A stretch of DNA of 64,000 nt from Octopus vulgaris (taxonomy: Eukaryota): NCBI GenBank assembly GCA_951406725.2, contig OX597819.1, positions 84,816,001 through 84,880,000 of the forward strand, given 5' to 3'. Made by a program: the position numbers and the translations under genes. Positions 904 to 49,427 of this stretch are shown here, piece by piece (the stretch's first letter is position 1; the number at the start of each line of letters is the position of its first letter). The notes under the pieces are model-generated. The model was not told where the DNA came from. It did no database searches and worked only from the letters and a program-made list of their open reading frames with translations.

Positions 904-1139
904 ATCGTTCAAGTATTTTCAACAGTCGAAATAAGTATAAACAAAAATCTGTAGTTAACACAAAAAAGTTAAACAAGTTTTCTGGTGGAGCTATAACGAA
1001 TGGATTTGGTCGTGCAGTAGCTAATTCATCTAAGCAAAACCACTTAAGCACTAACATTAAGTGCAATGATACTAGTTCAAGTAAATCAAATGCGCATATA
1101 GCACTGTTGGTTGGTAATTTTCCAATTGGAACTACAAAG
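904..1139 (+). CDS. Gene A exon: low-complexity linker plus RRM RNP2 (…HIALLVGNFPIGTTK)
   Basis: ttacag|atcg acceptor, aag|gtacgt donor; homologous to gene B exon 56711-56985 (ICLFVGNFPYGTSE) with the same phase-0 intron. Confidence 0.85.
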
Positions 1140-4100
1140 GTACGTTACAGCTCAATAATGGTATTGCTTTCATTGTCCTCAGCTTTATTATCATTTTGTT
1201 AATGGATTAAATAAGGTTTAACTGTTCATAAACCCCGAACTTTTAGTATTTGTTTTAGTCTTAGAAAACTTCATATTTTCCATTGGCTGCTATCATTCAC
1301 AAGTACTTGTCATTGTTTGCTTCACTGCTATTCATTTTCATTGTGGGTTTCGACTATTAAAGTCTTTAATCATTAACCCTTTAGCATTCATATTACCCTG
1401 TCAGATGAAATGCTTATTTATTCTCATTTAAAAAAAAAAAATCCTGTTTTATCTTGTAGCTTTGCGATTTCAAAGATGGGATTGTTTATTTTTAGAATGA
1501 CATTGCAGTGGAGATGTGAAAGTCTGGATCTGGCCGGTTTGGACTTAAAATAGGTAGAATATTTAGGCCAGATACAGTCAGTTTAAATGCTAAAGCATTA
1601 ATGTAGTTTGCTGAGGTTTTAATCTAGTTTACCACTTCAGTGTATTGTAACAAAATTCTTACTTACTGGATAGTCAATCATAAATTAACAGTACAAGGAT
1701 TGTACACTGACATTTATCTTGTAAATAATATAGTTTTTCTTTTTTAGTACTGCAAATACCTTACAAACAAGCATTCTGGGCTATGTTATAACTTGTTTTG
1801 AGTAAATAAAATTTTAAAGTGGATATTTCCCTTTCATTATGCCTTTCATCTTTCCAACCAGTAATTCATTTTTGCATTCATCTGTCTCTGTGTATGCATT
1901 TATCGATTCATCATTTTGTATAATTATACCATTTTATTTTTCATTAATGCTACAATGCTCTGGAAGCTGACAGAAAGTTAACTGAAAATAAGATGTCCCA
2001 TGTGTTATTTGATACAAAAGGATGAGAACCTAATATCTAGTTTAAATCAATGAAAGGCTAAGAGAATGGATTCATAATACAAGTGTGACATAACTAAAAA
2101 TAATAGATGGTTTTTTCAAAAAGAATACATAAAATACATTTTAAAAAAATGTAATTTTAAAAGAAAAATAGTATCAAAACTTATTCTTACTTACATAAAT
2201 GCAGATACTAACACTGCTCATTTTATATATATATATGTATATATTTATGTGTGTATATTGAATTTTTTTTTCGTGTCAGTATTTATACATGGTGTTATTT
2301 TTCAAATATTTTCAGGGGGAGTTGAATGCATTATTTTGGGACTATAATGTTTCACAAATTGAAATGGTAAACAATTCAAACTCTAAAAGGAGGTTAGTAC
2401 AATAATTTCATTTTTATTTTTATATTTTTAGTGTCATTATATTTATGGGTTTGAAATCTGTTATGCAGTTGGGGTTTTTTAACACGAATTGATTTGCTTT
2501 GAATTCAGGCATTATATACATCAAAATACAGCGTTGTTTATAACAGTGGTTCCCAAAGTAGGTGATACTGACCCCCTGGAGATGGTTGAAAGATCTGTTT
2601 GTGGTGGTATGTGTGTGCTAAGAATGTGGCCTAGGTGCCAACAGGGCAGCAGTCTGAAAAAGTTTGGGAACCACTGGTTTATAACAAACTGTAGATTGCA
2701 GTTCAATCTAATAAACAGCATACAACTGTATTAATAACTAAATAACAGTTAATAATACAACAATAAATACTCTAATATTAGGATTTTTTTTTTAGCATTG
2801 GGAAATATAAACATACACAGATATATATCGCCGTCCAACCCATGCTAGCATGGAGAACGGACGTTAAACGATAATGATAATGATGATGATGATGATGATG
2901 CAATCCTACTCAAGTTTAGGCAACAGTGTTTAGTTATGGAACAACTTGTTTTGGGGTTATGGTGTGCAGTTTATAGTATCTACAGGTAATTGGGATAGCG
3001 ACTGCCTGAAATGAACCTGAGTTCTCTCAGCAGGCTGTGGCCTTGGTGAACTCTTCTCAATAAGGTTATTTTAAAGACTATTATGTATTGTTGGCAAATA
3101 GATTTTTTTGTTGTTGTTTTGCTTTTCTTAATTACTTTAATTCTGTAGATTGATCATGCAGTCAAAAACTGTCATTTGAGTCCTTGATGACCTAAACATT
3201 CTAAACACTTTTGTCAAGAACAAGCTGAGATAGTTAGTCTATATGTATAAAGATGACAAACATTAATATTGTAAAGTTGACATTAATGAGTGAAAAGAAC
3301 CACATAGTTTATTTTGAATGAGTGTTTCTAAATAAGAGAGTAGCAGCACAAATTGTTCTGCTGGTCCTTCAGCATGGCAACAGGCTAGTAGTTGGAACCT
3401 GTAAGAAGGTTAAAAAAGGAGGAACAGTTAAGAATATGAATTGTTTGGTTTCTGCTTTTATCCTACCTCTAATTCAGTGATTCCTAACCTGTTCTGTGTC
3501 TTACACCCCAAGGAAATGATTAATTTATTTTCACATCCCTAACAAAAATATTGCAGTATTGCACTCAAAGATCAGAAACTTCAATTTTCTAATAAATGTT
3601 TTTTTTTTTTAATGAACCTCATACAATTCTGTAGAATAGTGAAGTTCTTGATATGCTTACTGTATTTGCTAGCATATAAGACAAAGTCTTGCATCATAAG
3701 ATGTATCCCTACCTGAATGTAATATGGCTGCATTGGACAAGTAACAATTTTTTGTTACTTTTACGAATATATAAAAAAAAGATTAATATATATGCTGGGA
3801 TATACAATCATAGTATCAAATTTTGGCATGAGGCCAGCAATGTTAAGGAGGGTGCTAATTGATTAAATCAACCCCAGTGCTCAACTGATACTTACTTCAT
3901 TGATTCCGAAAGAATGAAAGACAAGGTCGATCTTGACAGAATTTGAACTGAGAATGTAAAGGTGGGTGAAATGCCACTAAGCATTTTGTCCTGCATGCTT
4001 AATGATTCTGCCAGTTCTCCACCTTATGAGATATACAATAACATAGCAAAGTTATCTTTAAATGTAAGTGATTTTAATAAGGTAAATATTTACCCTCTTT

Positions 4101-5726
4101 GCTGCACACTTAAGGATATGAACATTCCAGGTTGGGAACAACTCTAATTATTATGCATAATCTCTCTATATATAAAACTGAGAATGTGTGTCTGTCTGCC
4201 TGTCTGTCTGTGTGTTTCCCTAAAACTTGAGAACTACACAACCAATTTCATTCAAATTTTACACATGTCTTACTTAGGGTCCATGTAGTTTCATGGGCAA
4301 AAAAAAATGTTCAACTTCTTGCCTAGGGCGAGCCCATAGCAATATCATATCTTCTCTACTATTTCAGTATTACATGTTAAAAGTGAAACAAAAACATTTC
4401 TCTATTTTATGTCAGATACTTTCACTTTAACAATAAAAATAATAATAACAACTGAATTATATGTAGTAAGTAATAATTAAAATCAAACTAAAGTATAATA
4501 TAATCGTAACATAACAAAAGTAAAAATAGCAATTGGTATAAAATTGCTTCAAGGATTTGAACTTGAATAAGTGGTTTCACATGAATGGGAATAAATTAAA
4601 AATAAAATTAGTGTGCAGAAATGGAATAGTCCTACAATTCCAGTCTGTTATATATTTTCAGTATTGTTATCACTAGCAATATCAAGATATAACTTTGTAT
4701 TTTGTATTTTATGTGTAGATGTACATGTAATATGTACACATATATACATACACTAGCACTATGACCCGGCAAAGACAGGTCATAATGCTAGTAATATATA
4801 TTTTGTATGTCTTAATTGAAATTTGTTTGTTTTATATTTTCAGCACTCAGGCTTTTCTTTATTTTTCTAACTTACAAGATCCTTATATGGCTATTGAAAA
4901 ATATGACAAGGCACAATATCTTAATCACAATTTATTTGTGGCCTTTGTTGATCCAGCTTATGTAACCAATAAAGAAGCAAAGCTAACTGGATCTAAACTG
5001 AAGAAGAAAACTCCTAAAACTAGAGGTAAGTTTGTTGTTTTTAAAATTTGTATTCTCTTTGTGTTTCATCTAACATCATATATGCATTTAAAATCTAAGT
5101 ATATTCACACACACTCACACACTCACACTCACACATGAGTGCGCAAACACACACATACCCACCTCTCTCATACATATACACGTATGTATATGTATGTGTT
5201 TGTATCTACACACAAACATATATATGTATGTATGCATATATGTGCATGCATACAGGTACACACACACACATACACTCAGGGTATATGTATGTCTACATGG
5301 TTAAGAAGTTTGTTTTACTTTGCAACCATGTGTTTCTAGTTTGGATTCTGCTGTGTAGCTCCTTGGACAAGTGTCAACTTCAATTGACTAACCATTCTGT
5401 GTATGAAATATAGTACCATATATGCTGGTGTATAAGATGTGATTTTTTTTTGCATACACATGAAAAAAAATTGGCATGCCTCTAATGCAACCATATTATG
5501 GATGGGATACTGAGTGTATGAATGTGTGATGAAACAATAATTTTGTTTTTTGCCACAAGAAAAGTAGGGGCTTGTCTCATTGAAGAGTGTGTCTTATAAA
5601 CTGGCAAATGTGGTAGACAAATTATATGGAAGTTTACTGAATGTGTGTATGTGTTTGTTTCTACAACAATTAATGTATAACATAGTTCATCTAAAAGAGA
5701 AATTCATTAAACAGTTCTTATGTGTA

Positions 5727-8700: not shown

Positions 8701-11700
8701 CCTAACCAATTTGTACCAACATTGACCATTACTAACCTATCTGTTCTAGTGACTAGCCTATTGCAGTTCTAGACTTTTACTAACAACCTGAACAGCTGTT
8801 TCCTCTTATGTTGCTCCATCATGGCATATATTGATGGAACACCTCTTTCTCTCTCCTTCTGCAATTGAGCTTCATCGACGTATATTCTCTCTGCAGACAC
8901 GCATATCCTCCATGAACAGAACATTTGAAAATCTCCTGCAGAAGAAAGTTGACAACCTACATTCATTCAACTACACCGAAACTCAGAGAAAAATGACAGC
9001 GCTGCATCCTCAATACTTGTGAACAACACAGCTAAGACCATCACACTTATTTCAAATGCTATGTTAGGCTTTCAATCTCTGATAACTTTTTGTGGTGACT
9101 ACACATATAACCACATAATGAAGATTGCATCACTGTTCACCCTATACAAGGTGCGGGTTCACTCCACACTGAAGTACTGCTCGCACATCTGAGATACTGC
9201 AGTTACTACACACATGCACATTCAAGACTGCATCAAAATTTCGCCGTCCACTTGACAGGCAAATCTTCAGTCATCAACAGTCTTCAACCACTTTTCCATT
9301 GTTGAAATGTCTTCCCTCTCTCTCTTCTACTCTAAGAAAAGAAACACAAAGCAATGGTCTCTGGCTTTCCTGAACTTAACTGAGTATATAACACTTCCAT
9401 GTACATCCATGTATTTCACTTGTCTCTCCTCCTATCATCCATACAGTGAAGCACCCCCCACTAGATCTAACTTTGCTCAATCTTTCTTCTTCAGAATTGC
9501 ATGTCTCTGAAATTCCTTCCCTGGCTATGTTTTCATCCCAACCATTGATTTCAAGAGGTCAAAAATGAACATAAGCCATGTTAACCTCTCCTAGCTGTCT
9601 CTACATACCCAGCGAAATAATAAATAAATAAATAAATAAATATATTTAGAAAGTCTAAGTTTTCTACTTGTTTTTCATTTGTATGTCTTCAATAAATTTA
9701 GACACTAAAACTTCAAACTTAGTACTGGCACCTAGACATGGTGTATCATGTAAATTTAATAAACAATCAATATAGTTTTGTTGTTCTATCTATATCTTAA
9801 TTTTTTGTGTACTATGTATTGTATAATAAAATATTACATTAAGTTTGCATTGTTTGTGTACTTCATCACCTACTTGCTTGCTAGTTAACTATGTATGTGG
9901 AGGAAATGAATGTTTCATTTGTTAATTTTTTTGTTTCTATTTACTTTTATATTTGATTTTATGTAATGTGTTTTAAAATGGTTTTTTTACTGATAACCTT
10001 TTTTAAAAATGGTTTTATACACACACATACTCTTTCATTCAGAAAGCAGTATATAAGAGAATGTCAGTAAAAATCTAGTTTATTTAGACGGTAAGGTGCA
10101 TATATTTAATTAATCCTTTTACTGTTGAAATCAGATACATCCACTCAAAATTTTATTGTCTTTAGTTGAGGGAAAGCAATTTTATATATTAATCTATTGT
10201 TGAGGAATGTCATGTTTTTGAAACTATTTTCTGTTGAAATATGTCAAATTTATTATAGTAAATTGACTTGTAAAAAAAATTCCAATTCTACTTTTTGGTA
10301 AACATTTAACATCATTACTGGAATAACCATGAAATTTAATTTTGGAGTTAAAGGGTTAAGACAACACTTCATATACAATCATGTGCATGATAACTTCTCT
10401 TTGCTGATGCACTTTTCAACACTTACACTGGTAATTCAGTGTTCTTAGCCAAGGTCAATATTTAGGTTTAAGCAAGTTTATATTGCAATTACAAGAGCAG
10501 AAGATCATCATAATGTGAATCTTTTGGCAAAAAGACATGTTTTAGCTCAAAAGTAAGGGAGGAAAAACATTCACAAATTGTTCTAAATGTTGTAATATTG
10601 AAATAAACTCTCCCCAGAGTTTTTTTTCTCTGTTTCATTTTTACCTAACTCAAGGCTAAACACCTATTTGTATTGTGATACTAGCAGATGGTCAGCCAAT
10701 CATATTTTTTAATCTGTTCGGCATACATCTTTCACCTAATTGAATGCTCCTGCTCATCTACCATTACTGGAAGAGGACTACTTTGCTTAATCAGTTTTCT
10801 CTGTCTGACAAACTGGTTTGGCATTGGAGGGAAATGTTATAAGTAACAATTAACTAGGTCAGCCCAAATTATTTATTTACATTTCTTTCAGCTTACAAAT
10901 GCTGGAAAAAGTGTTCTTAATTTAGTTGTTTATTCATTCATTCACAGTCGAAGCTTCCTTCATCAAACTAGTAGCAAAGGGAAGGCTTAAAAGATATATT
11001 CTCTTATGCATTTCAGCCCAAAGGCTGTGGCCATGCTGGGGTACCACGAATGTAATCACCTCAATGGCCAGTCTTATGTGATTGACTTTTGGTAAAAAGA
11101 AGGAGTTTGACATTGCTGCCTTCTTTTGAGCTTCTTACTGTGATGTAGGTTCATTTAGGACCTTGGACAGCAGGAAGTTAACTTGTTTCTTGAAAACACC
11201 CACCCCTACTCCATGAAAATCCCTCAGATGCTTTGGCAAGGCATTGAATAGCTAAGGATCCTTGAATCCCAAGCTGTTGCAATATGTGTTCCTCTCTCTA
11301 GATGGGATAGCTGGGACCTTTGAAACATTGCAATAACATCCCATTTTTTGGATGCTGGTATAGCTCTTGATACCAAAGTTTGGTGCCAACCCCTTCAAGA
11401 TGTTTTATGTCTCTCCCATCTTCACTCCAGGGGGTAAAGTTGTAGCTCTTTCAGTCTTTCCCAGTAGTTCAGCTGTTCTCTATATATACATGGCAAATAA
11501 GAAAATGGAGAGGATCCAAAAATGACATACATCAGCCATACTAGAATGTCTACCAGCTGCTGTATGTTGTTTTTGTATCCTCTCCATTTTCTTATTTGCC
11601 GTATAAATTAAGGGTAAACCACTTTTACCCCCGCCCATATATAACATTCAATTGCGAGATTGCTACATAATAACTAGTACTTGGGTACGAATAATTGGGT

Positions 11701-11814: not shown

Positions 11815-14800
11815 AATTAGAAAAAAACCTACCCTTTATCAATTCAAAATGAACAATTAAATTACACCATCTAGAAAATTACATGTAATAGAAATATTAA
11901 AATAACAATAAAATGTCAATGATTAAGTAAATTGCAAAAAAATAATAATAAAAATGTATAAAATCCTTTATAATAATTAAAGGATAACATATCCAATATC
12001 GAACGTAAAAAATACTATCAAGAAACTATAAATAAATAATAATATTACAACAGCAATAATAATAATAACAACAATAATAATAATATTTCAAAAACACAAC
12101 GAAATAGAGAAAAGATAAAATGTCAAACTTAGCTTTGTGAAGTGAAAGAGTAACTGATTTTTAAAGTAAAATAGTTAAAGCGTTTATAAGATTTATCGCG
12201 TGGAGACTTAGTGCAAAGAAATAGAATAAATACTCAGTGAAAAATAAGAAAAAACGAAAAAACATTAAAGTCTCATGAACTAAAGAAATGTGAGAAAAAA
12301 AACACAACTTATGGAGAAACTAATATGAAGACACACAACTAAAACTAACAGACACCTATTAATATATCAATAACAAAATTAACCACAGCTAAACATTAAT
12401 CCCAAAATAATACAAAATCCAAACGAAAAGGAGAAAAGAACGTTGCTAAGTTAGTTGAGAAGATATCGCTAGATTATAAACGTAAATAATATATATATAT
12501 ATAAATGTCAAAGAGTAAAGACCCCTTTGGTCATGAATGACCATGGGATTGTATTTAGTAAGTTACCTCTCTCCATGCCATCAATGTTATTCAAGGGAAA
12601 GGCAAAGGCCGATACTGCTTGGCACCGGTGACATTGCAACTCATTTCAGTAGCTGAGTGAACTGGAGCAATGTCAAATAAAGTGACTTGCTCAAGAACAC
12701 AACACAGTTGCGGCTGGGAATCGAACTCACTACCTTATGATTGTGAGTCTGACACTGTAATTACTGAGCCATGCACTTTCACTTTCAGACACACACACGT
12801 ACATATATATCCATTTAGTGTTGAATGTTGGCAAAAAAACATGAAATTAATAATATATTTTATTTTGCTTGAGTCAGTCTCTTACTTTTATTGTAACTTA
12901 TCTGAAGACCTTGTGTACTCACATGCAAATTGATATTTATATATATATTAGTAATAAAGATGAAATGAATGAGTGTTTTGGATACTATTTAATGTTTCCA
13001 TATCAAAGTTTTATGAACACCATGATCCATCATATAATTTGGCATGTGACAATATGCAAGATTATATAACATTATATAAGATTATTTTTTCATAAAATGC
13101 TACCTCATTAGGCAATACACCATTAGATGTTTTTGTAGCATAACAGTTTTATTGTGGGTATTAGAAATTAATTTCTTTGACTGACTAGTAGTTTCATCTG
13201 GAGAGGAATCCACCTTGAACTGTGACCTCTTGAGGTGAAATTAATTGTTAGCGGCAAGCATCAAACATATGCATCTTTTATAGAAAGTGTCTGAAACATG
13301 TTTGTTAAATAAATAAAGCAAAAATTATATCCTTCAAAGAAATAAAATTCCACAGGGAAATTGAATCACGTAGGCAAACCTGCTACCAAGATGCACCAAG
13401 TTTGCATTCTCTTAATTATAATTATAATTGTCTATTTGCTTTACAAAACATTTTTACCACAACAACATAGATACTTGCTTCCTGAAATTTGTCAATGGTT
13501 ATCATTTTTCAGAGTTAGGTTTCTTCTACTTATGTGTAACAAAGCAAAGTATCCCATTTTGATTTAATGTTATGTGTTTAAAGGTAAATTAATGACAAAG
13601 ATTTTGACCCTTTTGCTCCAGAAATCAGATATATCCACTCAAAATCTTATTACCCTTAGCTATGGAAAGCAGTTTTGTTTTATGTACCAATCTATCTTTT
13701 GTTGAGTTATGTCATGTTTGAAAATATTTTTTGTTGAGAAGTGTTAAATCTATTCAGGCAACATAACTTGCAGAAAATACCAATTCTATTTTTTGGTAGC
13801 TATTTACCATAATTTGTGGAAATTTAATTTTGCAGTAGAAGGGTTAAAATAATACCATTGTTATTTTTCTCATATTTGGTGTTTGCAAAGTTACAATTTT
13901 TAATATTTATTATTTTAAATTCTCAGTCTTTATTTATAAATACGCTCTTACACATGCATGTACATACACATATGTGCACGGCACGCTTGTGCATACGCAT
14001 ATACACTTGCACACACTCACACACACATAACAACACTTATTTTCATTTCAGATTTTGATAAAAAGGTTTCTTCAGTGGATGGAATGAGTTCTATAAATGA
14101 AAGACTAAGGCAGTGTAGTATTCAGTCCAGTGATTTAATTGAAGAATCTCATAGTTCAAATCATGTTCATCCTGACAGAAGATCAAATTATGTAAATAGA
14201 ACAAATGATAGGCATATGTCGATGCAGGATTCTCACAGATTTTTGAATGGTAAAAAGAAACGAAGAAATGGTCAATATAACAACAGCAGCAAGCTAGCTG
14301 ATATCAAATCAAAACATTCCGAGGAAGGGTCTAGCAGCATGAAAAATGAACATCGTAAGAAATTCGATGAAGAAGGTAATTTGTTTTTTTGAATTTTTAG
14401 TACTTTGAAATATGAAGTGCAATTCATTGAGCTGGTATTGAACCAAGACCATTGACCACTGGGTTTCCAGGTTTGTATTCTGTCAGTTATTTTATACTGT
14501 GTGAGCTTCTTAACTGTATAGCCATGCTTATACTTATATATAATTTGATTTAATTTCAAATTTTGGCACTAGGCCAGCAAGGTCAGGGCGGGGTAAGTTG
14601 ATTAAATTGATTCCAGTGTTTAACTGGTACTTATTTTATTGACCCTGAAAAGACGAAAGGCAAAGTCTGCCTTGGTGGAATTTGAACTCAGAGTGTAAGG
14701 ACAGACAGAATGCTGTTAAGCATTTTGCTTGGTGTGCTAATGATTTTGCCAGCTTGCTGCTTTGTACATATATACATATTGAGGAATAAGACAAAGTCAG

Positions 14801-17800
14801 CTTGAAAGATTATATTCATATTATTAACACCTTTGGTCATTTAAACATTCAGTTTAACTTTTCAGCTAATGTACTTAAAGCATTTCTTGTAAACTAGCAT
14901 TGACTCCTTAACCCTTTCGTTACTATATTTCTGGCCAAAATACACCCCTTATGTGTTTCAATTAATTTCTAACATAATCATAAATTTAGTCTGGTTTCAT
15001 TAAACAACTATAACTTTTTTACTTATCAATATATAATGTGATTTTTGGAAGATAATTTAATGAAATGTTCTCAACCAATTCTATACTATAATTTTTGTCA
15101 CAAAGTGACTCTAATTGCAGGTAGATACAGGTAAATTCAACAAAATATAAAATTATTAAAATTTTGTTCAAACATCGCTATAGAAAATGGGTTATTAGCT
15201 AATATTCAATTGGGTATACAACAAAATTTTACGATAGAATTTGTTATTCTGGGTAACTTTCTGATACCCATAATAATATTTATGGCAAAATAGTCTTAAT
15301 TTCATTTAAGGTTGTGGGAAACCACTAACTATCCTTTCTTTTGCTTTGTTTACATTTAGCGTAACGGTTCGTTTCCGCTGTAATGAGTTCAAATAGACTC
15401 ATCGGAAAAAGGAAAAAGAAATAGTCTATCACTTTACTCTCCTGGGAAAGTCTGTGGCTTGGTCCAGTTTCTTCAGAAAAATCACCGAAAGAAACAGTTT
15501 TTAAATTTTCACTCCATTCAGGTGCCAATTCATTTTCTTTATCGCTGTCGGAGCTCTCAGATTCACTGTTTTCACTTTCGGAAAATGAAACATCAGATTC
15601 ATTATCAAATACCACGTGCTTTTTTTTTTCAGTCATTTATGAAGGTCTTCAGTAGAAAATCCTTCGAATTCTGAGTCGCTGCTTGATATAATGAAATTCA
15701 TATCCATTTTTTGTCAGAATTACAAATTTTGAAAACACAATAGGAACAAATTTCGGAAAAAATCTCCCAAAATTCACTGAATTAAAATTACACTTCGATC
15801 GTTGTACAAAACTGTAGATAAACTGTTTACGAAGTTTAATCAGGTGTTTTTACGAATGTACTAAAGAGATTTGCTCTGATATTCTCATTTAAATATGAAT
15901 AGGTAAATACGGGTGGCTTTGGGTGGTTTGGTAACGAAAGGGTTAAAAATACATTTTCAAGTACAATAACAATATGGCAATCAATATATCAAAGAATACA
16001 ATGATTTCTAAGAAAATGCTATCCTACTTTTCTTATTTCAAAGCATGATTCAAATATAGAATTAAATTTTAATCCCAAATACTATCAGTATTTCAATTCT
16101 ATGAAGCAATTTTGAATAATAGCAATGACCAATGTCTTGTGAATGAATTTGGTTGATGGAAACTATGTGAAGTGCATCACACACACACTCACAGTTGTAG
16201 GCATTGGTGTGTCCTAACCATGTGGTATTGCGTTCAATCCCATTGCACAGTCCTTAAGCAAGTGTCTTATTACGATCCCAAGCTGACCAAAACCTTTTGA
16301 ATAGATTTGATGGCAGCTGAAAGAAGACCGTCATATACATGCAAGCATGGCTGTATGGTAAGAAGCTTGCTTCCCAACCACATGGTTCCAGATTTAGTTC
16401 CACTGTGTGGAACCTTGGTCAAGTAGCTTCTGCTATAGTGTCAGGCTGACCAAAGCCTTGTGAGTAGATTTGGTAGGCAGAAACTGAAAGCAGCCATATG
16501 TGTGTGTGTATGTGTGTTTATGTCTGTGTTTGTTCCCTCATCGCTGCCTGACAAAAGATGTTGGTTGATTTATGTCCTTGTGACTTAGTTCAGCAAAAAA
16601 GACCAAGTCTTGGGGTCAATTAGTTTGACTAAAACCCTTCAGGGCAATGCTTCAGCATGGCCACAGTCAAATTACTGAAATGTATAAAAGAATGAAAGAA
16701 TATTATGCATCTTCCACTCCTGTCCCTGTTATACTTGCAACACCTAGCATAAAGCTACCTCCTTCAACACTACACTCCTTTAACCAAAGGGTTTTGTTTT
16801 GCAAGTTACTTGGCAATCTCGGTAGTGCCGGTGACAGGAAAAAGCACCAAGTACACTCTGTAAAGAGGTTGGTGTTAGGAAGGACATCCAACCTTGAAAA
16901 ATCTGCTTTAACAAATTCCATCAGACCCATTCAAGCTTAGGAAAGTGTGTGTTAAATGATGATGATGATGATGATATATACATGTGTATGTGTATGTCTG
17001 TGTGAATGTTTGCAAGCAGTGAATTTTGCTGCCATTTACCTGTCAACAAAATAACTAATGGATTTGTGCTTTTGAAGATGTGTAGAATAAGAGGTCTTTA
17101 CATGAAAAACAGGTATGGGTTAACGATAGGAAAAGCATCCAGCTGTAAAACAATGTTTCAATAACAATGACTTAACCTACATTAACATGGAAAAAAAACT
17201 GGTCATCATCATCATCATCATCATCTAATCTCCACATTTACATGCTTGCATGAATTTAGACAAAATTTGTTGAAGCTGATTTTCTATAGACTGATACCCT
17301 TCCTGCCACCCACCCTCACCTTGTTTCCAAGCAAGGTGATATTTACCCCAATTTTTTTTATTACCAGACATATTTTGCATGAAAGACTGGAAATAAACAA
17401 CCCCGCTTGTATGATGGTGATGCTCATTTACATCCATCATGTGATATCAGAACACACACATATGCATACATGCAACACACACACACACACACACACTGTT
17501 ATATACACACGTGTATATTTTAATATTTCGCATAAGCATGATGATGATGATTAATAGGAATATCTCCAAGTATCTTTTGTGTGCAGACCTCGTGGTTAGC
17601 TGTTGCACTCACGATCACGAGATCGTGGTTTCATTTCCTTTAGGTCCTCCCCAGCAAGAAACCCATAATGCTCCAGTCCTTTTCTTTCATACTATTCTCT
17701 CTACTCCTCATTCTCCCAACATCAGGTCTCCCTCTTCACCTGTTTATTCATAGTCTTGCAAGCTGCATGGTGATCACACTAGTGCTGATGACATGAAAAA

Positions 17801-20800
17801 AGCACTCAGTGCATACTTAGTCAAAGTGGTTTGCGTTAAGAAGGGCATCCAGTCACAGAGACCATACCAAAGCAGATACTGGAGCATGATGCCGTTTTGG
17901 GGCCCATTAGAACCTGTTAAACTGTCCAGCACTTGCCAGCATGGAACACAGCTGTTAGATGATGATGAGGCAGATGATAATGTGTATAGATTATTTATGA
18001 TTTGGGAAAATAGACCAAAGAAAAGGACCTGAGACACGAGAACAATAGGCCTCAGATTAGAGTGTACAGGATCAAGTTGCAATAAAACCTCTATAATAGA
18101 TCTGTCCTATCTATGCTTTTACAGAAAAGAAGAAAGTACTAACATATCCTAGCATTTCTTCATTGAAAATATATTGTATGAGTATGTTTCTATTTAATAA
18201 TAAACCATTGAAAGTACCAACTCTATCACCACCTCTGCTATTTGTAATTGTTTTGTTTGATATGATTTAGGCAAGAGTATGTTTCCCAACCATATGGTTT
18301 TTAGTTCAGTTCCAGTGCATAGCACTTTGAGCAAGTGTCTTCTGAAGTCTTGGGCTGACCAAAGCTTTGTGAGTGAATTTGGAAGACGGAAATTGAAAGA
18401 AGCCTATCATATGTGTGTCCCCGTGTCCGTGTCCTTATCTTGATATCACATGATGGTTGTAAATGAGTGTCACCATCAGATGAACAGTGCCCTTCGTTTT
18501 GAATCTTCTGTATAAACATATCTGGCCATGGGAAAATATTACCTTATTTGGAAACAAGAGTTGATAACAGGAAGGGGATTTGGCCATAGAAAATTTGCCT
18601 CAACAGATTCTTCTGACTTATGAGAGCTTGAAACAGTGGATGTTAAAACAATGTTGATGTATGTGTATGTTTGTGTCCCCTTGCCTTGACATTGCTCAAT
18701 CATTAAGTGGTGTTATTCATTTCTAATTTTTGGTGAAAAGATGTCTGGCCACGAGGAAATGTTACCTTGCTTGGAAATGGGTGAGGGTTGGTGACAGGAA
18801 GGGTATCAGGCCATAGGAAATCACTCTCAATGAGCTTTGTCTGAACCCCTCATAGAATGGTGGATGTTAAAAAGATAGTGATGATGAGGATGATGTTGCA
18901 TGTAATTAGCTAGCTCCACATGATGATGGGCTACTTAAATATCAATAAAAATGTGATTTCTATTTCCATTTTCCTTATTTAAGTTGGTATGGTTATTCCT
19001 TGTCATATGTAAAACTGAAACTCATGCTTTTGGACTATTAGGTGTCAAAGGAAATATGTTTATGGTGTTTATGAGTGTTAACATACCTATGTGCTCACAC
19101 ACACACACACACAAACACATGTTTATATAACTTTATATTTTAGAGTCCCTTGGAATTTTCAAAGTTACACGAGGAATTGATGTTGTCTGTCAATGATTGG
19201 CCAGAGTATAATCCACCAATTGATAAATGTGTCGCTTTATATTGGGATGATTGGAGCCAGTAAGTAAGACTTAATTATGACTCATTAATATTTTAATCTA
19301 TTTTCTAGTTTCAAAGAATTTTCCAGAACATTGGTTTTTAATAACAATGGTTATATCATGAACTTATTTAGCAAAATGGAAGTCAGTTTTTTGTGGGGTT
19401 TTTGTGGATATTGTTCTTAGCAATATTGAAGTAGTCAAGATATTTTATGAGGTATCCTCCCATATATGGGAAATTTCTTCCTCACACCAAAATCTTCAAA
19501 TATGTGGGTTAGTAAATCTTTGCTTATTTAGTATATTAATTTTTGATTAGCTAAACAAGAGGGGAAGAATAGTTCCTATAAGCTTTCTAGACCTTCCAAC
19601 ACTGGTGAAATTAATATGACTGGTGTTCAATTTGAGCATATGTATAAGTCAACATTTGCAGGGAAAAATATGAATGAGGATTCCATAGGGCTGCTTTTCT
19701 GAAGAGGAAGGAGTGAGAAATGTGTTTATATCATATTTAAGAAATTACAATGGAAACTTCACTGCAATTACTTGAATTGCACTTTTATTATTCAGAACAC
19801 AAAAAGTTGGTTGTAACTTTAGAGTGTCTGGATTAAATGTCTTCCTTTATTCAGTTTTTTGCTTTTAGATTCTAAATCAAAATTTCACTAAGATTCTACT
19901 GGATTCAATCAAATCACTATTCAAAATATACTAAGTTGGTTGTTTTATTTCAGCTAAACTACTTCTATATGAAAGAAGTCTGGTTCCATAGGCAAAAAAA
20001 ACTTTACTAGTTCAACTCTTTGCATTCAGATTACTCTGTTAAATATAATGCTTATTTATTCACACTGTTTGGAATTAATGAGGCATTATCTCAAAGCGTT
20101 GAGATTTCAATGATGCGATTGTTTATTTTTATACTGACATTGGAGGGTAAGTCTGGTTCTTACTTTATTAGTCTCTTTTGCTGAACCACTAAACTAACAC
20201 TGGTTATCAATTGGTGTGGTGGAGTGACAAACACAAGCAGTTGAACTACACATATATATATATAGCTCTGTCTGGCCCCGTGTCGGTGGCACGTAAAAGC
20301 ACCATCCGTTCGTGTCCGTTGCCAGCATCGCCTGGCCCCGTGCCGGTGACACGTAAAAGCACCATCCGTTCGTCAGCTCTGTCTGGCACCTGTGCAGGTG
20401 GCACGTAAAAAAACACCCACTACACTCGCGGAGTGGTTGGCGTTAGGAAGGGCATCCAGCCGTAGAAACACTGCCAGATCTGACTGGGCCTGACGAAGCC
20501 TTCCAGCTTCACAGACCCCAGTTGACCCGTCCAACCCATGCTAGCATGGAAAACGGACGCTAAACGATGATGATGATGATGATATATATATATAGTTATG
20601 GATGGTCTATGGAGTTACCCAGGGTTTCACATCCATAAAGCACTTAGCTTTACATCTCATCAGACCCTAATGGCCTATGGCCTATACTCTTTCTTCAAAG
20701 AGGTTTTGGCTATTGGCCATTAGGGTTGGATGGGGCATTAGGGTCTGATGAAAGCTAAGCACTTTATGGACATGAAACTCTGCGTAACTGCATAGACCAG

Positions 20801-23800
20801 CCATAACTATCTGTATCTAAATACTCTACTGCTCTATAACTTAGGGTGTGCTTCTCTTTCAGATTTATGATTTACTGACTATATATATATACATATATCT
20901 AGGGCAGGAAAAATTCCTGAGATCCATGGGCGAGTTCTCTCCAGCGGTCTTTGTCCCTCATCATTGCTGCCATGTCCTGTATCTCCCAGAGACTAGTGTT
21001 TGTCCTTAGGGCATCAACATATTTCATCCTCAGTCTCCCTCTTCTAAAAATATAAATATTCAGCAGTATCAACACAAACAGTGTTTAGGCATAAGCAAAC
21101 TTTAGGTTAGTTAAAATATGTTTGTGTTTTAGAAGTTGAAATATGTCACAGACGCATATATAAATTATATATGATGGGCTTCTGTAATTTCCCTCTACCG
21201 GATTCACTCACAAGGTATTGGTCAGTCCTGGGTTTATAGTAGAAGACACTTGCCCATGGTGCTGCACAGTGGGACTGAACCTAAAACCATATAGTTGCAA
21301 AGTGAGTGTCTTAACCACACAACCATGCTTGCACTTATGTTTGACAAACATTAGGTTTGTCATGGCTAAAAAACATTTCATAAGTGTATTTAATGAAGGT
21401 TGATATAAATCAGTGGTTCCCAAAGTGAGTGGTACTGTTCCCCCTAGGAGTGGTGGAAAGAGCTAGGAGGGGCATTAGAGAAAAGTCGGGTGATAATGGG
21501 ATGGCCAAATGAGGGCGATGGATGTAAAAACAACAAAATAATGGATTAATTAGGTTAAGTTTTATTTGTCAAATACAGTTGTTTTGAATTTGTTGCAAAA
21601 ATTGGTCTATGTTTGTGATGCTGAATAGAGGGGGGGGGGGGGCTAGGAATGTGGCCTGGGTGATGAGGGGGCAGCAGCCCTAAAAAGTTTGGGAACCACT
21701 GATCTAAAGCTAAACAACATTAATGACCTCCAAACATTGACTTTCTGTTGTATTTTATCTTCTTTCTGTTAATATAACAAAATTTGGTCATCAAAAGCTC
21801 AATACCTACTGCATTCATCTCCTTGAGAATATTTATCCCTTTAAAAATATATCATCTCAATTTAGAATTGGAGAATTAAATCTTAAATTTACTTAATTTG
21901 TTTACATTTTAAACAGTATAGTCTTTTTTAAAAAATTAGCTTACAGTTACTTCCTCCATCTAAAATATTCTTTTGCTATTTTCTAACTAGATGAATGTAA
22001 ATTAACATCTGCTATGGTTAACCAGTTATTGACAATAAAAATTGTTGAGGAAACATCTCAAGCAAATGTGAGTAATTCTTTCTCTCTCCCTTTCTCTTAT
22101 TCTCTATAAAATCTGATTGCTAGATCAGGAAAGGAGCAATAAATAAGCAATACTTCATTTTCACACTACATAAATTCTTTCCTTTTTTTGTGATTCAGTC
22201 AACACTAAGGATAGATTTATGTATGGGCCATGGCACAGGGGTCCCACTAAGGGCTGGGGGGTTTAGCTCAGAGAAACCTAAAGCTTCATCATCATCATCA
22301 TCATTTAATATGTTTTCCATGCTGGCATGATTGGGTGGCTTGACAGGAGCTGGTAAAGCTAGGTGTTGCATCAGGTTCCATAGTCTGTTTTGGCATGGTT
22401 TCTACAGCTGGACACCCTTCCTAATGCCTACCCTTTTACAGAATGTACTAGGTGCTTAAAAAAATAAATTTACAGCACTCAAATCAGTAATGTGTAATCT
22501 GTTTTTACTTGTTTAAATTTTAAAAATCAAATAGAGTTCTTTTAAAATTTGCGAGCCCTCTTTTGATTTATTGGGACCATTTTAAAATTAAAAGGCCATT
22601 AAATTTAAGAGTCTCTTTGAATCTAGTGAGGCCCTTTTAGTTTTGGGAGCTTTTTCAAATTGTTTGGGGCCTCTAGATTTAGTGGGGCTCTCTTTATTTT
22701 ATTGTTTTGAATTCACAAAATTATAGTGATCCTGAAATGGTCCAGGGGCTCCACTAGGTCTAAATCTGGCTCTGGTCAACAAACATGGCTAGCATTGTTA
22801 TTTTGTTGAGTAGTCTTGGATCTAGAATACACAGAAAATTACAAACATTACACTAATTAGTGAATGAATCTAACTTGAGAAGGAGCTGTTAACAAAGTGC
22901 TATTGATAATGGGTCAAGGGGTTGATAGCTTATGTCCTATCAGTAGTATAGGCTTCGCTGTATGGTTAAGAAGTTTTACTTGGCTGTTAGAAGGTTTCAA
23001 GTTTGATCTCACAGCATGGAACTTTCAGTCAATGGAAACCTTCATCATCATCATCATCAACATCATCATTTAACATCTGTTTTCCATGCTGGCATGGGTT
23101 GGATGGTTTGACCAGAGCTGGCAAGTCAGAGAGCTGCAGTAGGTTCCAGTCTGAGTTAGCTTGGCTTCTATGGCTGGATGCCCTTCCTAATGTCAATCAC
23201 TTTACAGTGTGTGCTGGGTGCTTTTAACATGACATTGCATGAGTGCTTTTATGTGGTTGAAATTTGGTTGATGGAGACTATGTAGAAGCCTGATGAATTG
23301 AAGCTGTTCTTGACTGGTAGATCTAGTCTATTGTTCAATTTAACACTACCACGTGGACCATGAGTACCTTTAATAGAGTCCATCTTGTTGCAAGTGTTTT
23401 GACTAAGTCTTTAGTCTAAGGATAACATATAAGCCATAGTTTATTTTCTTCTCTTTCTACTATCAATTTTGGGGCCCTGTAAAAATGATCAGAAGCTCTG
23501 CCCTTCTTTCTCAGCTTAAACCATACCCCTCACAAAAAAATTATAAACAAACAAAACATCATGTCCATAATTAATCTTTTAAGTCTGTTACTTATTCCAT
23601 TGGTGTCTTTTGCTGAACTGTTAAGTCATGGATACATAAACAGACCAACACTGGATGTCAAGCAGTGGTGGGAGACGAACACAAAAACACACACACATGT
23701 ATGATGGGCTTCCTCATAGTTTCTACCAACCAAATTCAATCACAAAGCATTGGTTGGCCTGGGGTTATAGTGGAAGACATTTGCCCATGATGCTGTTAAG

Positions 23801-33483: not shown

Positions 33484-33516
33484 TCAATCTTTCATTTTCA
33501 CTAGTGTGATATAACC
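33484..33516 (-). CDS. Gene B candidate terminal coding exon (GYITLVKMKD*)
   Basis: Strong poly-T-cag acceptor; phase 0; supplies a final beta-strand-like peptide. Confidence 0.5.
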   Translation of the reverse strand, partial: GYITLVKMKD

Positions 33517-36500
33517 CTGAAAAAAAAAAAATCAATTTATGGTGAATAGCTATTTAGCCCCTTATTTTAAGGAAGGAAGAAATAGAATATATGGTTTTCA
33601 TGCCTTTTACAAAAGCTTGGATGTGGACTTTATACATAATATATTGAAAAAAAGCATTGGTGTATTTTAACCTTTTCGTTACTATATTTCTGACCAAATT
33701 ACACCCCTTATGTGTTTCAATTAATTTCTAACGTAATCATAAATTTAGTCTGGTTTCATTAAACAACTATAACTTTTTTATTTATCGATATATTAATCTG
33801 ATTTTTGGAAGATAATTTAATGAAATGTTCTCAACCAATTCTATACTATAATTTTTGTCACAAAGTGACTCTAATTGCAGGTAGATACAGGTAAATTCAA
33901 CAAAATATAAAATTAAAATTTTGTTCAAACATCGCTATAGAAAATGGGTTATTAGCTAATATTCAGTTGGGTATACAACAAAATTTTACGATAGAATTTG
34001 TTATTCTGGGTAACTTTCTGAACCCATAATATTTATGGCAAAATAGTCTTAATTTCATTTAAGGTTATGGGAAACCACTTTCTTTCATTTTGTTTACATT
34101 TAGCGTAACGGTTCGTTTTCGCCGTAATGATTTCAAATAGGCTCATTCGAAAAAGTAAAAAGAAATAGTCTAAGGCTTTACTCTCCTGGGAAAGTCTGTG
34201 GCTTGGTCCAGTTTCTTCAGAAAAATCACTGAAAGAAACAGTTTTTAAATTTTCACTCCATTCAGGTGCCAATTCGTTTTCTTTATCGCTGTCGGAGATC
34301 TTGGATTCACTGTTTTCACTTTCGGAAAATGAAACATCAGATTCATTATCAAATACCATGTGCTTTTTTTTTTTCAGTCATAGAGTTAGATTTATGAAGG
34401 TCTTCAGTAGAAAATCCTTCGAATTCTGACTCGCTGCTTGATATAATGAAATTCGTATCCATTTTTTGTCAGAATTACAAATTTTGAAAACACAATAGGA
34501 ACAAATTTCGGAAAAAAATCTCCCAAAATTCACGGAATTAAAATTACACTTCGATTATTGTACAAAACTGTAGTTGAACTGTTTACGAAGTATAATACGT
34601 GTTTTCACGAATGTACTAAAGAGATTTGCTCTGATATTCTCATTTAAATATGAATAGGTAAATTCGGGCGGCTCTGGGCGGTTTGGTCACATTAACAAAA
34701 ATTTTTTTCGGGCGGCTTTGGGCGGTTTGGTAACAAAAGGGTTAATAAGAATCTTTCTATGGTGCAGCAGAGCTGAAAACCCAACAGTACAGCCTGTTAA
34801 CTAGCTAAACCATTAACCTTTTATTTGTTTCAGTCATTGTACAGTGGTTTAGTCAAACAAATTGACTTCAGTACTTATAGTAAATCTTGTACTTATTCTA
34901 TCAGTCTCTTTTTGCCAAACTGCTAAGTTATGGGGACATGCACAAACCAACACCAATTATCAAGCAGTAATGGGGGACAAATATACACGATAGTTTTCCA
35001 CACAGTTTTCATCAACCAAATTCATTTACAAAGCATTGGTTGTCCCAGAGCTATAGTAGAAGAAATGTGACCAAGATTCCGCACTATGGGACTGAACCTG
35101 AAACCATACTGTTGCAAACTGAGCTTCTTAACTACACAACCATGCCTGCACCTATGCTGAGGTTTTCCAAATCTCAGATGGACTTTTATTTACATGCTGA
35201 TATAAAATTACATTTAAGACCATGCTCAACTCAATATTTGAGTGTTGTACACTTATTTTTAACAAACTTGTTGTAGCCTTTAAAAAAAAAAGGGCAAAGT
35301 AGCTAGTTGTATATATATGTACAGAGTGCAGGGATGCACCGATAACCAGCTGGTGGAAGATCTGTCTGGGGTTAAACTAGAAGTAACATGGAACTGTTAC
35401 TTTGATGTGGCGATTAATTTTACTTGAAAAAAAAAAAAAAATTATTAACGATTCTCAAATATTTGCATTGTTGTGTAATTAGCTGAGTAGTGGTATGATT
35501 GATCTTATAAATGTTTCTGTGTATATTTGTTTAACCCTGTAGCACTTAAACCAGCCATATCTTCAGCCCAAATATTCTGTTTTATTTCAAACTGAACAAA
35601 TGCAGCCTCTCACACCCACCCTACAATGCCATCCTAAAAAACAAATGTTAAAGCTATGAGATAATGCATGGTTAATTCAAAACTGAATAAATAAGCATTA
35701 CATTTTATAGAATAATCTGAATGCTAGGGAGTTAAAACCAGGCGAACCCTGACTGAATAAACTTATGATCAAAAGCCTTCTAGCCATGACAATCCTGTGC
35801 ATTTTGTGTTTCCTTGGATTGACACTGTGTAATAGTTGTAAAATGATTGTCATTCATTTCCATTATTCTTTGAGAACATGTCTATCCATAAGGAAATGTT
35901 ACCCTGCTTGGAAATGGGTGAGTGTTGGCAACAGGAAGGACAACTAGCTGTAGAGAATCTGCCTTAATAAACTGTCTGATTCATGCAAACATGAAAAAGT
36001 GGACATTAAAATGACGTTGATGATAATTTCTTTATTTCAAATTACCTGCTATCGTTAAAATGAAAACCATTTGTAATTCTTAAATAAAAAAAATATGCAT
36101 GCTCTTCATATGACTAAACTACAACTAGAACTCTGATAGAAAGCTAATTTTACTATAGACATATAGCTGCATATCTAGGGTGCTGAACCTGTGTATTACT
36201 CCTGAAGATACTCTAAACCAGCAGTTCTCAACCTGGGTCCATATGGCCCCTGAGGATCCATATAAGATTTTGGGGGTCCAAATAACAAAACAGTAAATTG
36301 AGGATCCACAATAGTATTTTAAGGGCCCCTGAAAAAAATTTTGCTTTTGATGTATGTATTGGTATATATTGCAAGAAACAGTTAGGTTTCTTTCTCTAAC
36401 ATTTTATATAGATCAACCTACACAAGTTAATGTGTGAAAAACAAAATAGGAATTTTAAAAATTTCTATAAAACTAGTTTTTAAAAATTGAATAGCTATGT

Positions 36501-39500
36501 GGGTCCACCAGAATAAAATAGTAATCAAAGGGTTCCATAGATAAAAAATGGTTGGGAACCCCTACTCTAAACCATTCAATAACTACTGTCAGTCTAACAC
36601 ATGAACATCTCTATTTATCATTACAACCACATGATGTCAAAACTAAGAAACACAAACATAAGATAAATGTATATATATATACATACACACACACACCAGT
36701 ACTCCAGAAGACCTGTTCTTCACAGCAGAAATATTAAAGCCACATTCTCTGGTGAAGAGGATAGGCCTTCAAGAGTCCTGTGCCAGTACCATGTAGAAAA
36801 CACCTGTGCTGGTGCCATGTAGAAGTGCTGATGCTGGTGCCACACTAAAAGCACCCAGCACATACTGTAAAGTGGTTGGCGTTAGGAAAAGCATCCAGTT
36901 ATAGAAATGAAGCCAAACCAGACTGGAACCTGGTGCAGCTTTCTGGCTTGCCAGCTCTGGTCAAACTGTCCAACCTATGCCAGCATGGAAAATGGATATT
37001 AAAGAGTGAGGCTGTGTGGTAAGTAGCTTGCTTACCAACCACATGGTTCCGGGTTCACTCTTACTGTGTGGCACTTTGGGCGAGTGTCTTCTGCTATAGC
37101 CTTGGGCCAACTAAAGCCTTGTGAGTAAATAAGCCCGTCATATATATGTATATATAGATGTATGTGTGTGTGTATGTCTGTGTTTGTCCCCCCCCCCCCA
37201 ACATCACTTGACAACCGATGCTGGTGTGTTTACGTCTCTGTAACTTAGCAGTTCGGCAAAAGAGACCGATAGAATAAGTACTAGGATTACAAAGAATAAG
37301 TCCTGGAGTCGATTCGTTTGACTAAAGGCGGTGCTCCAGCATGGCCACAGTCAAATGACTGAAACAAGTAAAAGAGTAAAAGAGAGTATACACACATGAT
37401 GAGCTTATTTCTGTTCACCAAATGCACTCTCTGAAAACACTTGCCTTTGGTGCCACACAGCCATGCCTGAACAAATATTTATGTTCCTTAGCTGGATTCA
37501 CTTAGAGATAATTCAATATTTACTAAGAAGGTAGATAACATTCATTTCAGTTCTCTAATGAATAACTATAAAATAAACAACCTTTTAAAGATCTTGAGTA
37601 AAAGTATGATAGTAAAATTGAATCTTGTTCTATATAATAAGCTCTTTACATTCTGGAGAAATAAAAATTGAACTTAGAATTTGTTAATGTAAAAAACTGT
37701 AGAACATTTATCCAGCATTTAATTTAAAAAAAATTAATTTTCCTAATATTTCATTTCAAAATTGGAAAAATATTTTGGAGCTTATGTATCATATTTTTTT
37801 ATCAACCCTGAGAACAAAAGTGGCATTAACTCCATTTCACTTGATGTAATGATGCCTATTTTCTTTAATATATACTAAAGCATAAGCAAATCATTTCTCA
37901 TGCTTTATTATGCTACAGTAGCTGTGATACCTGTGCCGGTGGCACATAAAAAGAACCATCCGAACGTGGCCGTTGCCAGCGCCGCCTCGACTGGCTTCTG
38001 TGCCGGTGGCACATAAAAAGCACCATCCGAACATGGCCGATGCCAGCGCCGCCTTGGCTGGCTTCCGTACTGGTGGCACGTTAAAAGCACCAACCGATCA
38101 TGGCCGATGCCGGACTCCCCTGGCACCTGTGCAGGTGGCACGTAAAAAGCACCCACTACACTCGCGGAGTGGTTGGCGTTAGGAAGGGCATCCAGCTGTA
38201 GAAACTCTGCCAGATCAGACTGGAGCCTGGTGCAGCCCCTGGCTTCCCAGACCCCGGTCGAACCGTCCAACCCGTGCTAGCGCGGAAAATGGACGTTAAA
38301 TGATGATGATGATGATGATGATGAAAAGTCATATGGTCAAATACTCACTGAACTTGCTGTTTCTAGTTTAAGAATAACCAATGATATTTTTTCTTGTAAA
38401 ACATTTCCAGGAAGTTCTTTGAAACTTTCTGAAACAAGACAAAACAGAATCTAAATATTTCTTATGATATAATGGACAGCCTTGAAACAAAACTTTTCAT
38501 GGGATGAATTGAAAATAAAAACAGTCTTTCTCATAATTATTCTTTTTATTATAATAAACTTACTTGGTATTTTGAAGGCTCTAGCCATTGGAGAAAGCCT
38601 CCAAATAATGTCAGATGATAATCTGATAAACTGAAAATTAATTTCAGCAATGTTACCAACATCAACGAAAAAAACTTCTGCACATTCACTAGAAATGATT
38701 TTCAAAATATAGCCTCTGGAATGTAAAAGAAAAAAAATTAATCAAAAGTTCAAAAATTTATCAAAAATGTAAAAATAGTTTCACCATTCCATAGCAAAAC
38801 CATTGTACTAGACTTTGACAATCTTCATATCTTGGCATTTAGAGATATGATAGTTTGACCAAAAGAACCGATTATTGCAAGCAAAATTAAATATCAACAA
38901 AAATGTATTTGGCTAAATTAGATATAATAGCAACGGGTGGCACGTAAAAAGCACCATCCGAACGTGGCCGTAGCCAGCGCTGCCTGACTGGCCTCCGTGC
39001 CTGTGGCACGTAAAAAGCACCATCCGATCGTGGCCGTTTGCCAGCCTCATCTGGCAACTGTGCCGGTGGCACATAAAAAGCACCTACTACACTCACGGAG
39101 TGGTTGGCATTAGGAAGGGCATCCAGCTGTAGAAACACTGCCAGATCAGACTGGGCCTGGTGCAGCCTTCTGGCTTCCCAGACCCCAGTTGAACCGTCCA
39201 ACCCATGCTAGCATGGAAGGCGGACATTAAACGATGATGATGATGATATATATAGATATAGATATATATATATACACACACACATGCATACATAAGGGAA
39301 GCATAAGAGAGAGAGAGGGGGAGTGAGAGAACAAAGTAATGACAGTGACAGAATATTGACACTACATCTTTTGTTTGACTTAGTGAAATTAAGCATTCTC
39401 CTTTCATGAGAAACTGTTCATTAATAAATGTATTTTAATATGGCTGTAAGAAAATAATCATTCAACTACTTTCTGAAATGACTGAATAGAGGAAACTTAA

Positions 39501-44628: not shown

Positions 44629-44669
<41 letters not shown>

Positions 44670-49384: not shown

Positions 49385-49427
<43 letters not shown>

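What the first reader, a model, noticed from the sequence alone, without database searches (positions are those of the whole stretch)
14052..22067. Domain-selective decay: gene A lost its Tudor core but can splice in frame around it
Seen: all recognisable lesions fall in the three Tudor-core exons. The remnant at ~18984-19054 has stops, the conserved Arg codon CG became CA at 19258-19259, and exon 19348-19507 has an AG->AA acceptor, an ~11-bp tandem duplication and frameshifts. The RRM exons and the two downstream exons remain open with canonical sites. Exon 14052-14375 ends in phase 1 and exon 21991 starts in phase 1, so skipping gives …FDEE|DECKLT… in frame to the stop at 24200. Inference: a living Tudor-less RRM paralog (neofunctionalised, or a decoy/competitor of gene B) rather than an ordinary pseudogene.
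Basis: partly seen in the sequence, partly recalled or inferred. Interest (0 to 1): 0.8.

Follow-up and report, generated by a model that had tools for sequence, protein, structure and literature searches.

The report
Octopus gene turned Tudor into UTR
An octopus gene copy lost its Tudor protein-binding domain but lives on as a highly conserved RNA-binding gene, and three of the old domain exons are still spliced into its message, now mostly as untranslated tail.

Summary
Gene A (Octopus LOC115212823/LOC106871559, RRM-RRM) is a living, Tudor-less neighbour of gene B (RRM-RRM-extended Tudor, TDRD10-like). It differs at 7 of 441 residues between O. vulgaris and O. bimaculoides, gene B at 58 of 436. 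The lesions are real: an independent DNA run shares them. Contigs join 14375>19144 (3 of 3 RNA-like runs), then 19259>21991 and 22067>25454 (2 of 3). No 14375>21991 or >24069 joint is among the 15 listed (567 not shown; rare forms drop out), and 0 of 13 database isoforms carry that tail. So the old Tudor exon at 19144 is read out of frame and stops at 19194-96 after 17 residues; the rest, exon 21991 and the true last exon (25454, not 24069) are 3'UTR. The stop lies 63 and 140 nt before two retained junctions, an NMD-like layout shared, at protein level, by species about 34 My apart. The 19348 remnant is supported; the 18984 remnant is not above chance. A clear case of a known process, terminal domain loss in a paralog, with an odd spliced 3'UTR.

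The parts
904..1139 (+). gene A coding exon (linker and start of RRM2); the first 151 residues lie upstream of the window
   Evidence: 100% to P0001 152-230
2316..2392 (+). gene A RRM2 exon, 77 nt like gene B's 55020-54944
4844..5025 (+). gene A RRM2 end exon, donor in phase 1
8897..8928 (+). coding part of an alternative last exon giving the short 326/328-aa isoform
   Evidence: P0010 317-326 match; 4 of 13 cluster proteins, three species; outside the stretch laid with reads
14052..14375 (+). gene A exon for a 108-aa low-confidence, probably disordered region; no counterpart in gene B, partial counterpart in P0020
   Evidence: 3 of 108 differences to O. bimaculoides
18984..19054 (+). possible remnant of the first Tudor exon; unconfirmed, not seen spliced
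   Evidence: not above chance; bridged by the 14375>19144 joint
19144..19259 (+). old Tudor exon 6, still spliced; read in a new frame for 17 residues, stop at 19194-19196, rest 3'UTR; old frame open but structural Arg lost
   Evidence: joints; P0001 425-441; Tudor homology in old frame 0 of 25, 0 of 30, 0 of 30, 0 of 40 shuffles as high
19348..19507 (+). decayed Tudor exon 7, skipped: AA acceptor, 11-bp duplication, frameshifts
   Evidence: same in DNA-size run X17 and bridged by 19259>21991
21991..22067 (+). old exon 8, spliced as a 3'UTR exon; old frame still open
   Evidence: joints in 2 of 3 RNA-like runs; profile match 0 of 40 shuffles as high
   Evidence: adds nothing to the profile score
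25454..26580 (+). true last exon (3'UTR); first 33 nt are the old last coding exon; end not fixed, AATAAA at 25869, 26319, 26592
33484..63772 (-). gene B, convergent paralog, RRM-RRM-extended Tudor; Tudor exons 46839-46661, 42176-42058, 38715-38564, 38428-38349, 33516-33484
   Evidence: P0016 maps at 100% exon by exon; Pfam; fold match to extended Tudor structures

Best explanation
Genes A and B come from an old duplication of an RRM-RRM-extended-Tudor (TDRD10-like) gene. In the A line the first Tudor exon (179 nt in B, phase 1 to 0) stopped being included, so the phase-1 donor at 14375 now joins the phase-0 acceptor at 19144 (junction shown; order of events inferred). The frame shifts and translation ends after 17 new residues, removing the whole domain in one step (shown). 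Freed from protein constraint, exon 7 decayed and dropped out, while exons 6, 8 and 9 kept their splice sites and became a spliced 3'UTR (splicing shown; cause inferred). The product is a 441-aa protein with two RRMs and long unstructured regions, plus a 326-aa form from an alternative last exon. It most likely binds RNA and acts without Tudor-type docking on partners such as methylated PIWI tails (inferred from domain content). Strong conservation says it has its own job, not a leftover one.
For: Joints 14375>19144 in 3 of 3 RNA-like runs and 0 of 1 DNA-size run; 19259>21991 and 22067>25454 in 2 of 3; one X3 contig carries all three. The spliced model reproduces the end of P0001. 7 of 13 cluster proteins (three named species and one Logan record) end this way, 4 use the short form, 0 the skip tail; no other cluster was found among 2965 candidates. 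Pfam: RRM only in A, RRM plus Tudor in B. A differs at 7 of 441 residues, B at 58 of 436, Fisher p 4e-12; exon 14052 alone 3 of 108, p 2e-4 at B's rate; the species split about 34 mya (PMC10700109, passage). Loss, not gain: relatives in bivalves, a limpet, a chiton and an annelid have Tudor (9 of 10), and A groups with the Tudor-bearing P0020 in all three trees (83/80, 80/74, 90/85).
Against: All runs are contigs whose RNA status is a guess by the tool; rare forms drop out and 567 joints were not shown. X19 has no cover on exon 21991. The old frame of exons 6, 8 and 9 (73 codons) is still open with its stop in place; simulated chance 0.41, 0.23, 0.064, 0.020, 0.007 at 3, 5, 10, 15, 20% divergence. 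The 17-residue tail being unchanged is not significant alone (p 0.088). No dN/dS and no protein-level detection. Tree support is unstarred, and an A+B clade is not rejected (p-AU 0.077). The remnant of the first Tudor exon could not be shown.
Confidence: 0.8

Rival explanations
1. The long form is mainly a regulated, decay-prone transcript: its stop sits upstream of two retained junctions, and the cell tunes gene A by choosing between it and the short form, whose stop is in its last exon, perhaps through A's own RRMs.
For: Stop 63 nt before the next junction and 140 nt before the last, beyond the 50-55 nt rule quoted in PMC12277549 (passages); 3'UTR introns are a known NMD feature (PMC9661723, passage). 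Both isoforms exist in three species. Splice sites of the UTR exons stay canonical.
Against: The long form is readily assembled in 3 of 3 runs laid (runs were picked for holding exon 14052). Its own coding exon is conserved as protein. Junction-dependent NMD is unproven in molluscs (PMC12277549 says it 'may be active'), and is recalled, not looked up, as weak in flies and worms.
Confidence: 0.13
2. The reader's in-frame skip 14375>21991 (ending at 25486 rather than 24200) exists as a minor or tissue-limited isoform and keeps exons 8 and 9 open.
For: Phases fit; exons 8 plus 9 in the old frame still match the family profile (15.6 bits, 0 of 200 shuffles); contigs cannot show absence.
Against: Not among 15 listed joints; X3 and X8 contigs run from exon 6 into exon 8 without a break; 0 of 13 proteins. 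Exons 8 and 9 give only two strands of the fold in the gene-B model (E466-473, E482-487), unlikely to fold alone. It does not explain why exon 6 is also open.
Confidence: 0.1
3. Gene A is a decoy or competitor of gene B, binding the same RNAs without recruiting Tudor partners.
For: Same RRM layout, neighbouring genes, one lacks the docking domain.
Against: Only 59 of 162 RRM columns identical; A is no closer to B than to P0020 (63 of 163). A is far more conserved than its supposed target. B's own cage is altered (DVGN where most relatives have DYGN).
Confidence: 0.06
4. Gene A is an ordinary transcribed pseudogene, or the lesions are assembly errors.
For: A stop upstream of several junctions and decayed exons are typical of pseudogenes.
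Against: 98.4% protein identity over about 34 My; lesions shared by independent runs; same frameshifted end in three species' annotations.
Confidence: 0.02

Closest known systems
TDRD10 (RRM plus single extended Tudor; function listed as unknown in PMC12147562, table passage)
   Same: Gene B aligns with lungfish TDRD10 across RRM and Tudor in order (23% over 317 columns, pairwise E 6e-12); a source names P0016 '...domain-containing 10-like'.
   Different: Gene B has two RRMs; many mollusc relatives add a LOTUS domain (4 of 10; 5 of 9); PMC5381599 (passage) calls tdrd10 a chordate innovation, so orthology is open. Gene A has no Tudor.
Extended Tudor domains of piRNA factors (Drosophila Tudor, TDRD1, SND1, Papi, Krimper)
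   Same: The gene-B model matches them by fold (best E 5e-10, TM 0.72 on target); the structural Arg and Asp are present.
   Different: One cage position is non-aromatic in B; A keeps only untranslated traces. No link to PIWI was tested.
Terminal domain loss in a duplicate by exon loss and frameshift (general process, recalled, not looked up)
   Same: One copy loses a C-terminal domain and gains a short new tail from an out-of-frame exon.
   Different: Here three ex-coding exons stay spliced as a 3'UTR with two introns, their old frame still open, and the truncated copy is the more conserved one.
Normal mRNAs with 3'UTR introns that are NMD targets (PMC9661723, passage)
   Same: Stop more than 55 nt upstream of exon junctions (63 and 140 nt).
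   Different: Decay not shown; the rule is not established for molluscs.

Membership tests
TDRD10-like (gene B) | RRM plus one extended Tudor domain | tested here: met
   Pfam RRM_1 and TUDOR above cut-off; fold search
TDRD10-like (gene A product) | Tudor domain in the protein | tested here: not met
   No TUDOR hit in P0001 or P0010; model has only two RRM-like folds, mean pLDDT 39. A is a derived paralog, not a member by domain content.
TDRD10 proper | orthology to chordate TDRD10 in a Tudor-family tree | not tested
   Only a pairwise match; P0176 was not put in the trees
Extended Tudor domain | structural Arg and Asp (PMC7255803, passage) | tested here: met
   Gene B R402 and D420 invariant in 12 of 12; in gene A's old frame the Arg codon is changed
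Extended Tudor domain | four-residue aromatic cage for dimethyl-arginine | tested here: inconclusive
   By eye on the alignment, B has Val where most relatives have Tyr; cage positions were recalled, not mapped on a structure; binding not testable
Mollusc LOTUS-RRM-Tudor proteins | N-terminal LOTUS domain | tested here: not met
   No OST-HTH hit in P0001, P0016, P0017 or P0019, P0020, P0021
Pseudogene | neutral decay of the coding sequence | tested here: not met
   7 of 441 differences against 58 of 436 in the neighbour; dN/dS itself could not be computed
NMD target by 3'UTR intron | stop more than 50-55 nt upstream of a junction | tested here: met
   63 and 140 nt
NMD target by 3'UTR intron | actual UPF1-dependent decay | not testable with these tools
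   needs perturbation data

The most novel reading that the evidence does not exclude
The dead Tudor exons were kept because they became a regulatory device: the two 3'UTR introns put the long isoform under junction-dependent decay or localisation control, and gene A switches between this form and a short, junction-free form. A lost protein domain would then have been recycled as an RNA-level switch and held for over 30 My. Tudor-less P0021 grouping weakly with B while Tudor-bearing P0020 groups with A hints that another lineage may have made the opposite loss.
Probability: 0.13. Interest if true: 0.65.

Novelty: new member of a known kind. Interest (0 to 1): 0.35.

Why it matters
It shows step by step how a duplicate sheds a domain: one exon lost, the next read in a new frame, later exons left as spliced UTR. 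It gives a natural, long-kept transcript with which to ask whether cephalopods apply the exon-junction rule of nonsense-mediated decay. It also points to an almost invariant, uncharacterised two-RRM protein in octopus. It does not reveal a new kind of system.

Tried and rejected
No whole genome was held, so no genome-wide paralog search and no dN/dS. The run search listed no holder on record as RNA; 4 of 24 listed runs were laid, chosen from 4 studies. X19 has no cover in bin 21658-22088 and its contig stops at 19256: not used as evidence. Low depth in bin 23813-24243 was not used; the 22067>25454 joint was. In favour of 24069-24200 and still rejected: strong acceptor score (12.0), and 3 of the 4 X17 substitutions in it fall on third codon positions (hand count, chance about 0.11). 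Pfam on 11 single-exon translations found Tudor only in gene B's exon 7. tblastn of gene B found none of gene A's Tudor remnants. Exons 8 and 9 alone were mostly not above chance: exon 8 best hits lay elsewhere; exon 9 had no profile hit and 89 of 100 DNA shuffles scored as high. At DNA level gene B's exon 8 matched best at 19307-19383 (0 of 100), not at 21991; taken as an A+T-rich chance hit, unexplained. Tegillarca, O. bimaculoides B and P0021 rows were left out of the motif profiles (aberrant or redundant there); residues 245-275 of P0016 were dropped from the gene-B count because the P0017 model is aberrant there (12 of 30 more differences). Trees used LG+G4 without the mixture model; the P0020+P0021 clade is not rejected either (p-AU 0.067). 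ESM Atlas gave no usable hit for P0001 296-441. No orthologue of gene A from another named cephalopod was found (20 of the 150 listed hits looked up by name). Earlier-findings look-ups returned nothing. Literature searches found no paper on this locus: TDRD10+octopus 0, octopus+Tudor+LOTUS+piRNA 0, six gene or protein ids 0, cephalopod Tudor/RRM 3 unrelated listings; the library lacks most subscription papers. Supplements of PMC12147562 and PMC5381599 were not opened and may bear on TDRD10 membership.
Full report
Setting. The window is octopus DNA. Its exons match two named O. vulgaris proteins exon by exon: P0001 (441 aa, gene A, plus strand) and P0016 (489 aa, gene B, minus strand, convergent). 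Gene A is LOC115212823 in O. sinensis and LOC106871559 in O. bimaculoides; gene B is LOC118763904 and LOC106871557. Pfam finds two RRMs in both and a Tudor domain in B only. A model of B (mean pLDDT 65, about 85-90 over most of the Tudor part) matches extended Tudor structures. Shared intron positions and exon sizes (77/77, 182/173, 116/119, 77/80, 33/33 nt) show that the two are paralogs.

Observation check. They are not assembly errors: a DNA-size run from another organism code, X17, covers 19130-20051 with 4 substitutions and no gap, none at the lesions, and X8 covers 18710-19168 unchanged. The 19348-19507 stretch is a real remnant of Tudor exon 7 by most tests. Exon 19144-19259 matches the Tudor family in its old frame in 4 of 4 protein-level tests. 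The 18984-19054 stretch was never above chance, so it is only a candidate.

What is spliced. I laid 4 of 24 listed runs on 13900-26800. All are contigs, and the tool marks RNA status as a guess; three bridge GT-AG introns that the fourth, DNA-size run does not. The joint 14375>19144 is in 3 of 3, and 19259>21991 and 22067>25454 are in 2 of 3; one X3 contig carries all three. Databases agree: of 13 proteins in gene A's cluster, 7 end with the 17 residues from exon 19144 in the shifted frame, 4 end in an alternative exon at 8897, 1 reads into the intron after 5025, 1 is a fragment, and 0 have the skip tail. A search with the whole protein found no second cluster.

Consequence. The phase-1 donor at 14375 meets a phase-0 acceptor, so exon 19144 is read out of frame and stops at 19194-19196. 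The rest of that exon, exon 21991-22067 and the last exon from 25454 are 3'UTR. The exon at 25454, not 24069, is the counterpart of gene B's last exon: 10 codons and a stop in both, and with exon 21991 it aligns to the family's C-terminus (15.6 bits, 0 of 200 shuffles; with 24069 only 8.4 bits, all from exon 21991). The stop lies 63 nt before one junction and 140 nt before the last.

Is it alive? Yes. Gene A differs at 7 of 441 residues between O. vulgaris and O. bimaculoides, gene B at 58 of 436 (p 4e-12), over about 34 My (PMC10700109, passage). The exon found only in the long form is conserved too (3 of 108). The tail is unchanged in three species, which alone is not significant (p 0.088). 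Its model shows two RRM-like folds and low confidence elsewhere (shallow alignment). dN/dS could not be computed because no second genome was available.

History. A profile search of 1.84 billion representatives gave an Argonauta B orthologue, two unnamed Logan proteins (P0020 with Tudor, P0021 without) and LOTUS-RRM-Tudor proteins of bivalves and gastropods, down to lungfish TDRD10. A groups with P0020 in trees of the RRMs, of the old-frame Tudor pieces and of both; the old-frame pieces are 27 of 72 identical to P0020 and 15 of 71 to B. Support is moderate and an A+B clade is not rejected. Either way the ancestor had Tudor and A lost it before the three Octopus species split.

Mechanism, shown and inferred. 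Shown: the junctions, the frameshift, the stop, the shared lesions, the conservation. Inferred: that loss of the first Tudor exon came first, that exon 7 decayed afterwards, that the protein binds RNA, and that it works without Tudor-type partner docking. One oddity remains: 73 old-frame codons in the three retained exons have no stop or indel (simulated chance 0.41 to 0.007 over 3 to 20% divergence), although the invariant Arg is gone. Ordinary UTR constraint, the new frame over the first 17 codons, or a loss not much older than the species split can account for it; a rare skip isoform could explain two of the three exons.

Comparison and verdict. Terminal domain loss in a duplicate is a known process (recalled). 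mRNAs with 3'UTR introns are a known NMD class (PMC9661723, passage), but the rule is unproven in molluscs (PMC12277549, passages). For TDRD10 I saw one table passage (PMC12147562) and two passages (PMC5381599); for extended Tudor features, passages of PMC7255803. Four searches found nothing on this locus. The Tudor-less protein is already in RefSeq as uncharacterised; its origin by Tudor loss and its UTR of ex-coding exons appear undescribed in the library searched. Interest 0.35.

Noticed in passing
window 8897-8928 and about 8850-9250 (+): The short isoform's last exon, identical in three species, lies beside a stretch that looks like a decayed LINE end (motif recalled; no Pfam hit), so it may be transposon-derived.
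   Followed up: partly
window about 13770-14051: The main X3 contig runs about 280 nt into the intron before exon 14052 instead of joining an upstream exon (record 16): retained intron, internal start or assembly effect.
   Followed up: no
window 14908-15935, 33667-34690, 47072-48079: A 1-kb element in three copies, 92-93% identical, with a weak DDE_Tnp_1_7 hit (E 0.14); one copy in gene A and two in gene B introns; high copy in the DNA-size run.
   Followed up: partly
gene B exon 38715-38564 (-): Gene B has DVGN, and the Argonauta protein DIG, where most relatives have DYGN or DYGH: its methyl-arginine cage may be degenerate too.
   Followed up: partly
proteins P0020, P0021, P0100, P0161: Tudor-less family members recur: P0021 (unnamed, groups weakly with B, 86/84), and Elysia and Pinctada models with LOTUS and RRM only; they may be short isoforms or incomplete models.
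   Followed up: partly
window 23808-24538: X17 differs here at 15 letters with 12 gap letters in 719, against 2-4 differences in its other long pieces.
   Followed up: no
window 49400-50650 and 43653-44139, 52746-53920: Tandemly repeated SINE-like arrays and reverse-transcriptase-like fragments in gene B introns (labels recalled, no Pfam hit above cut-off).
   Followed up: no
protein P0017 (O. bimaculoides gene B): Its RRM2 is interrupted by a stretch resembling a LINE antisense reading near window 53560-53640, probably a gene-model error or gap.
   Followed up: no
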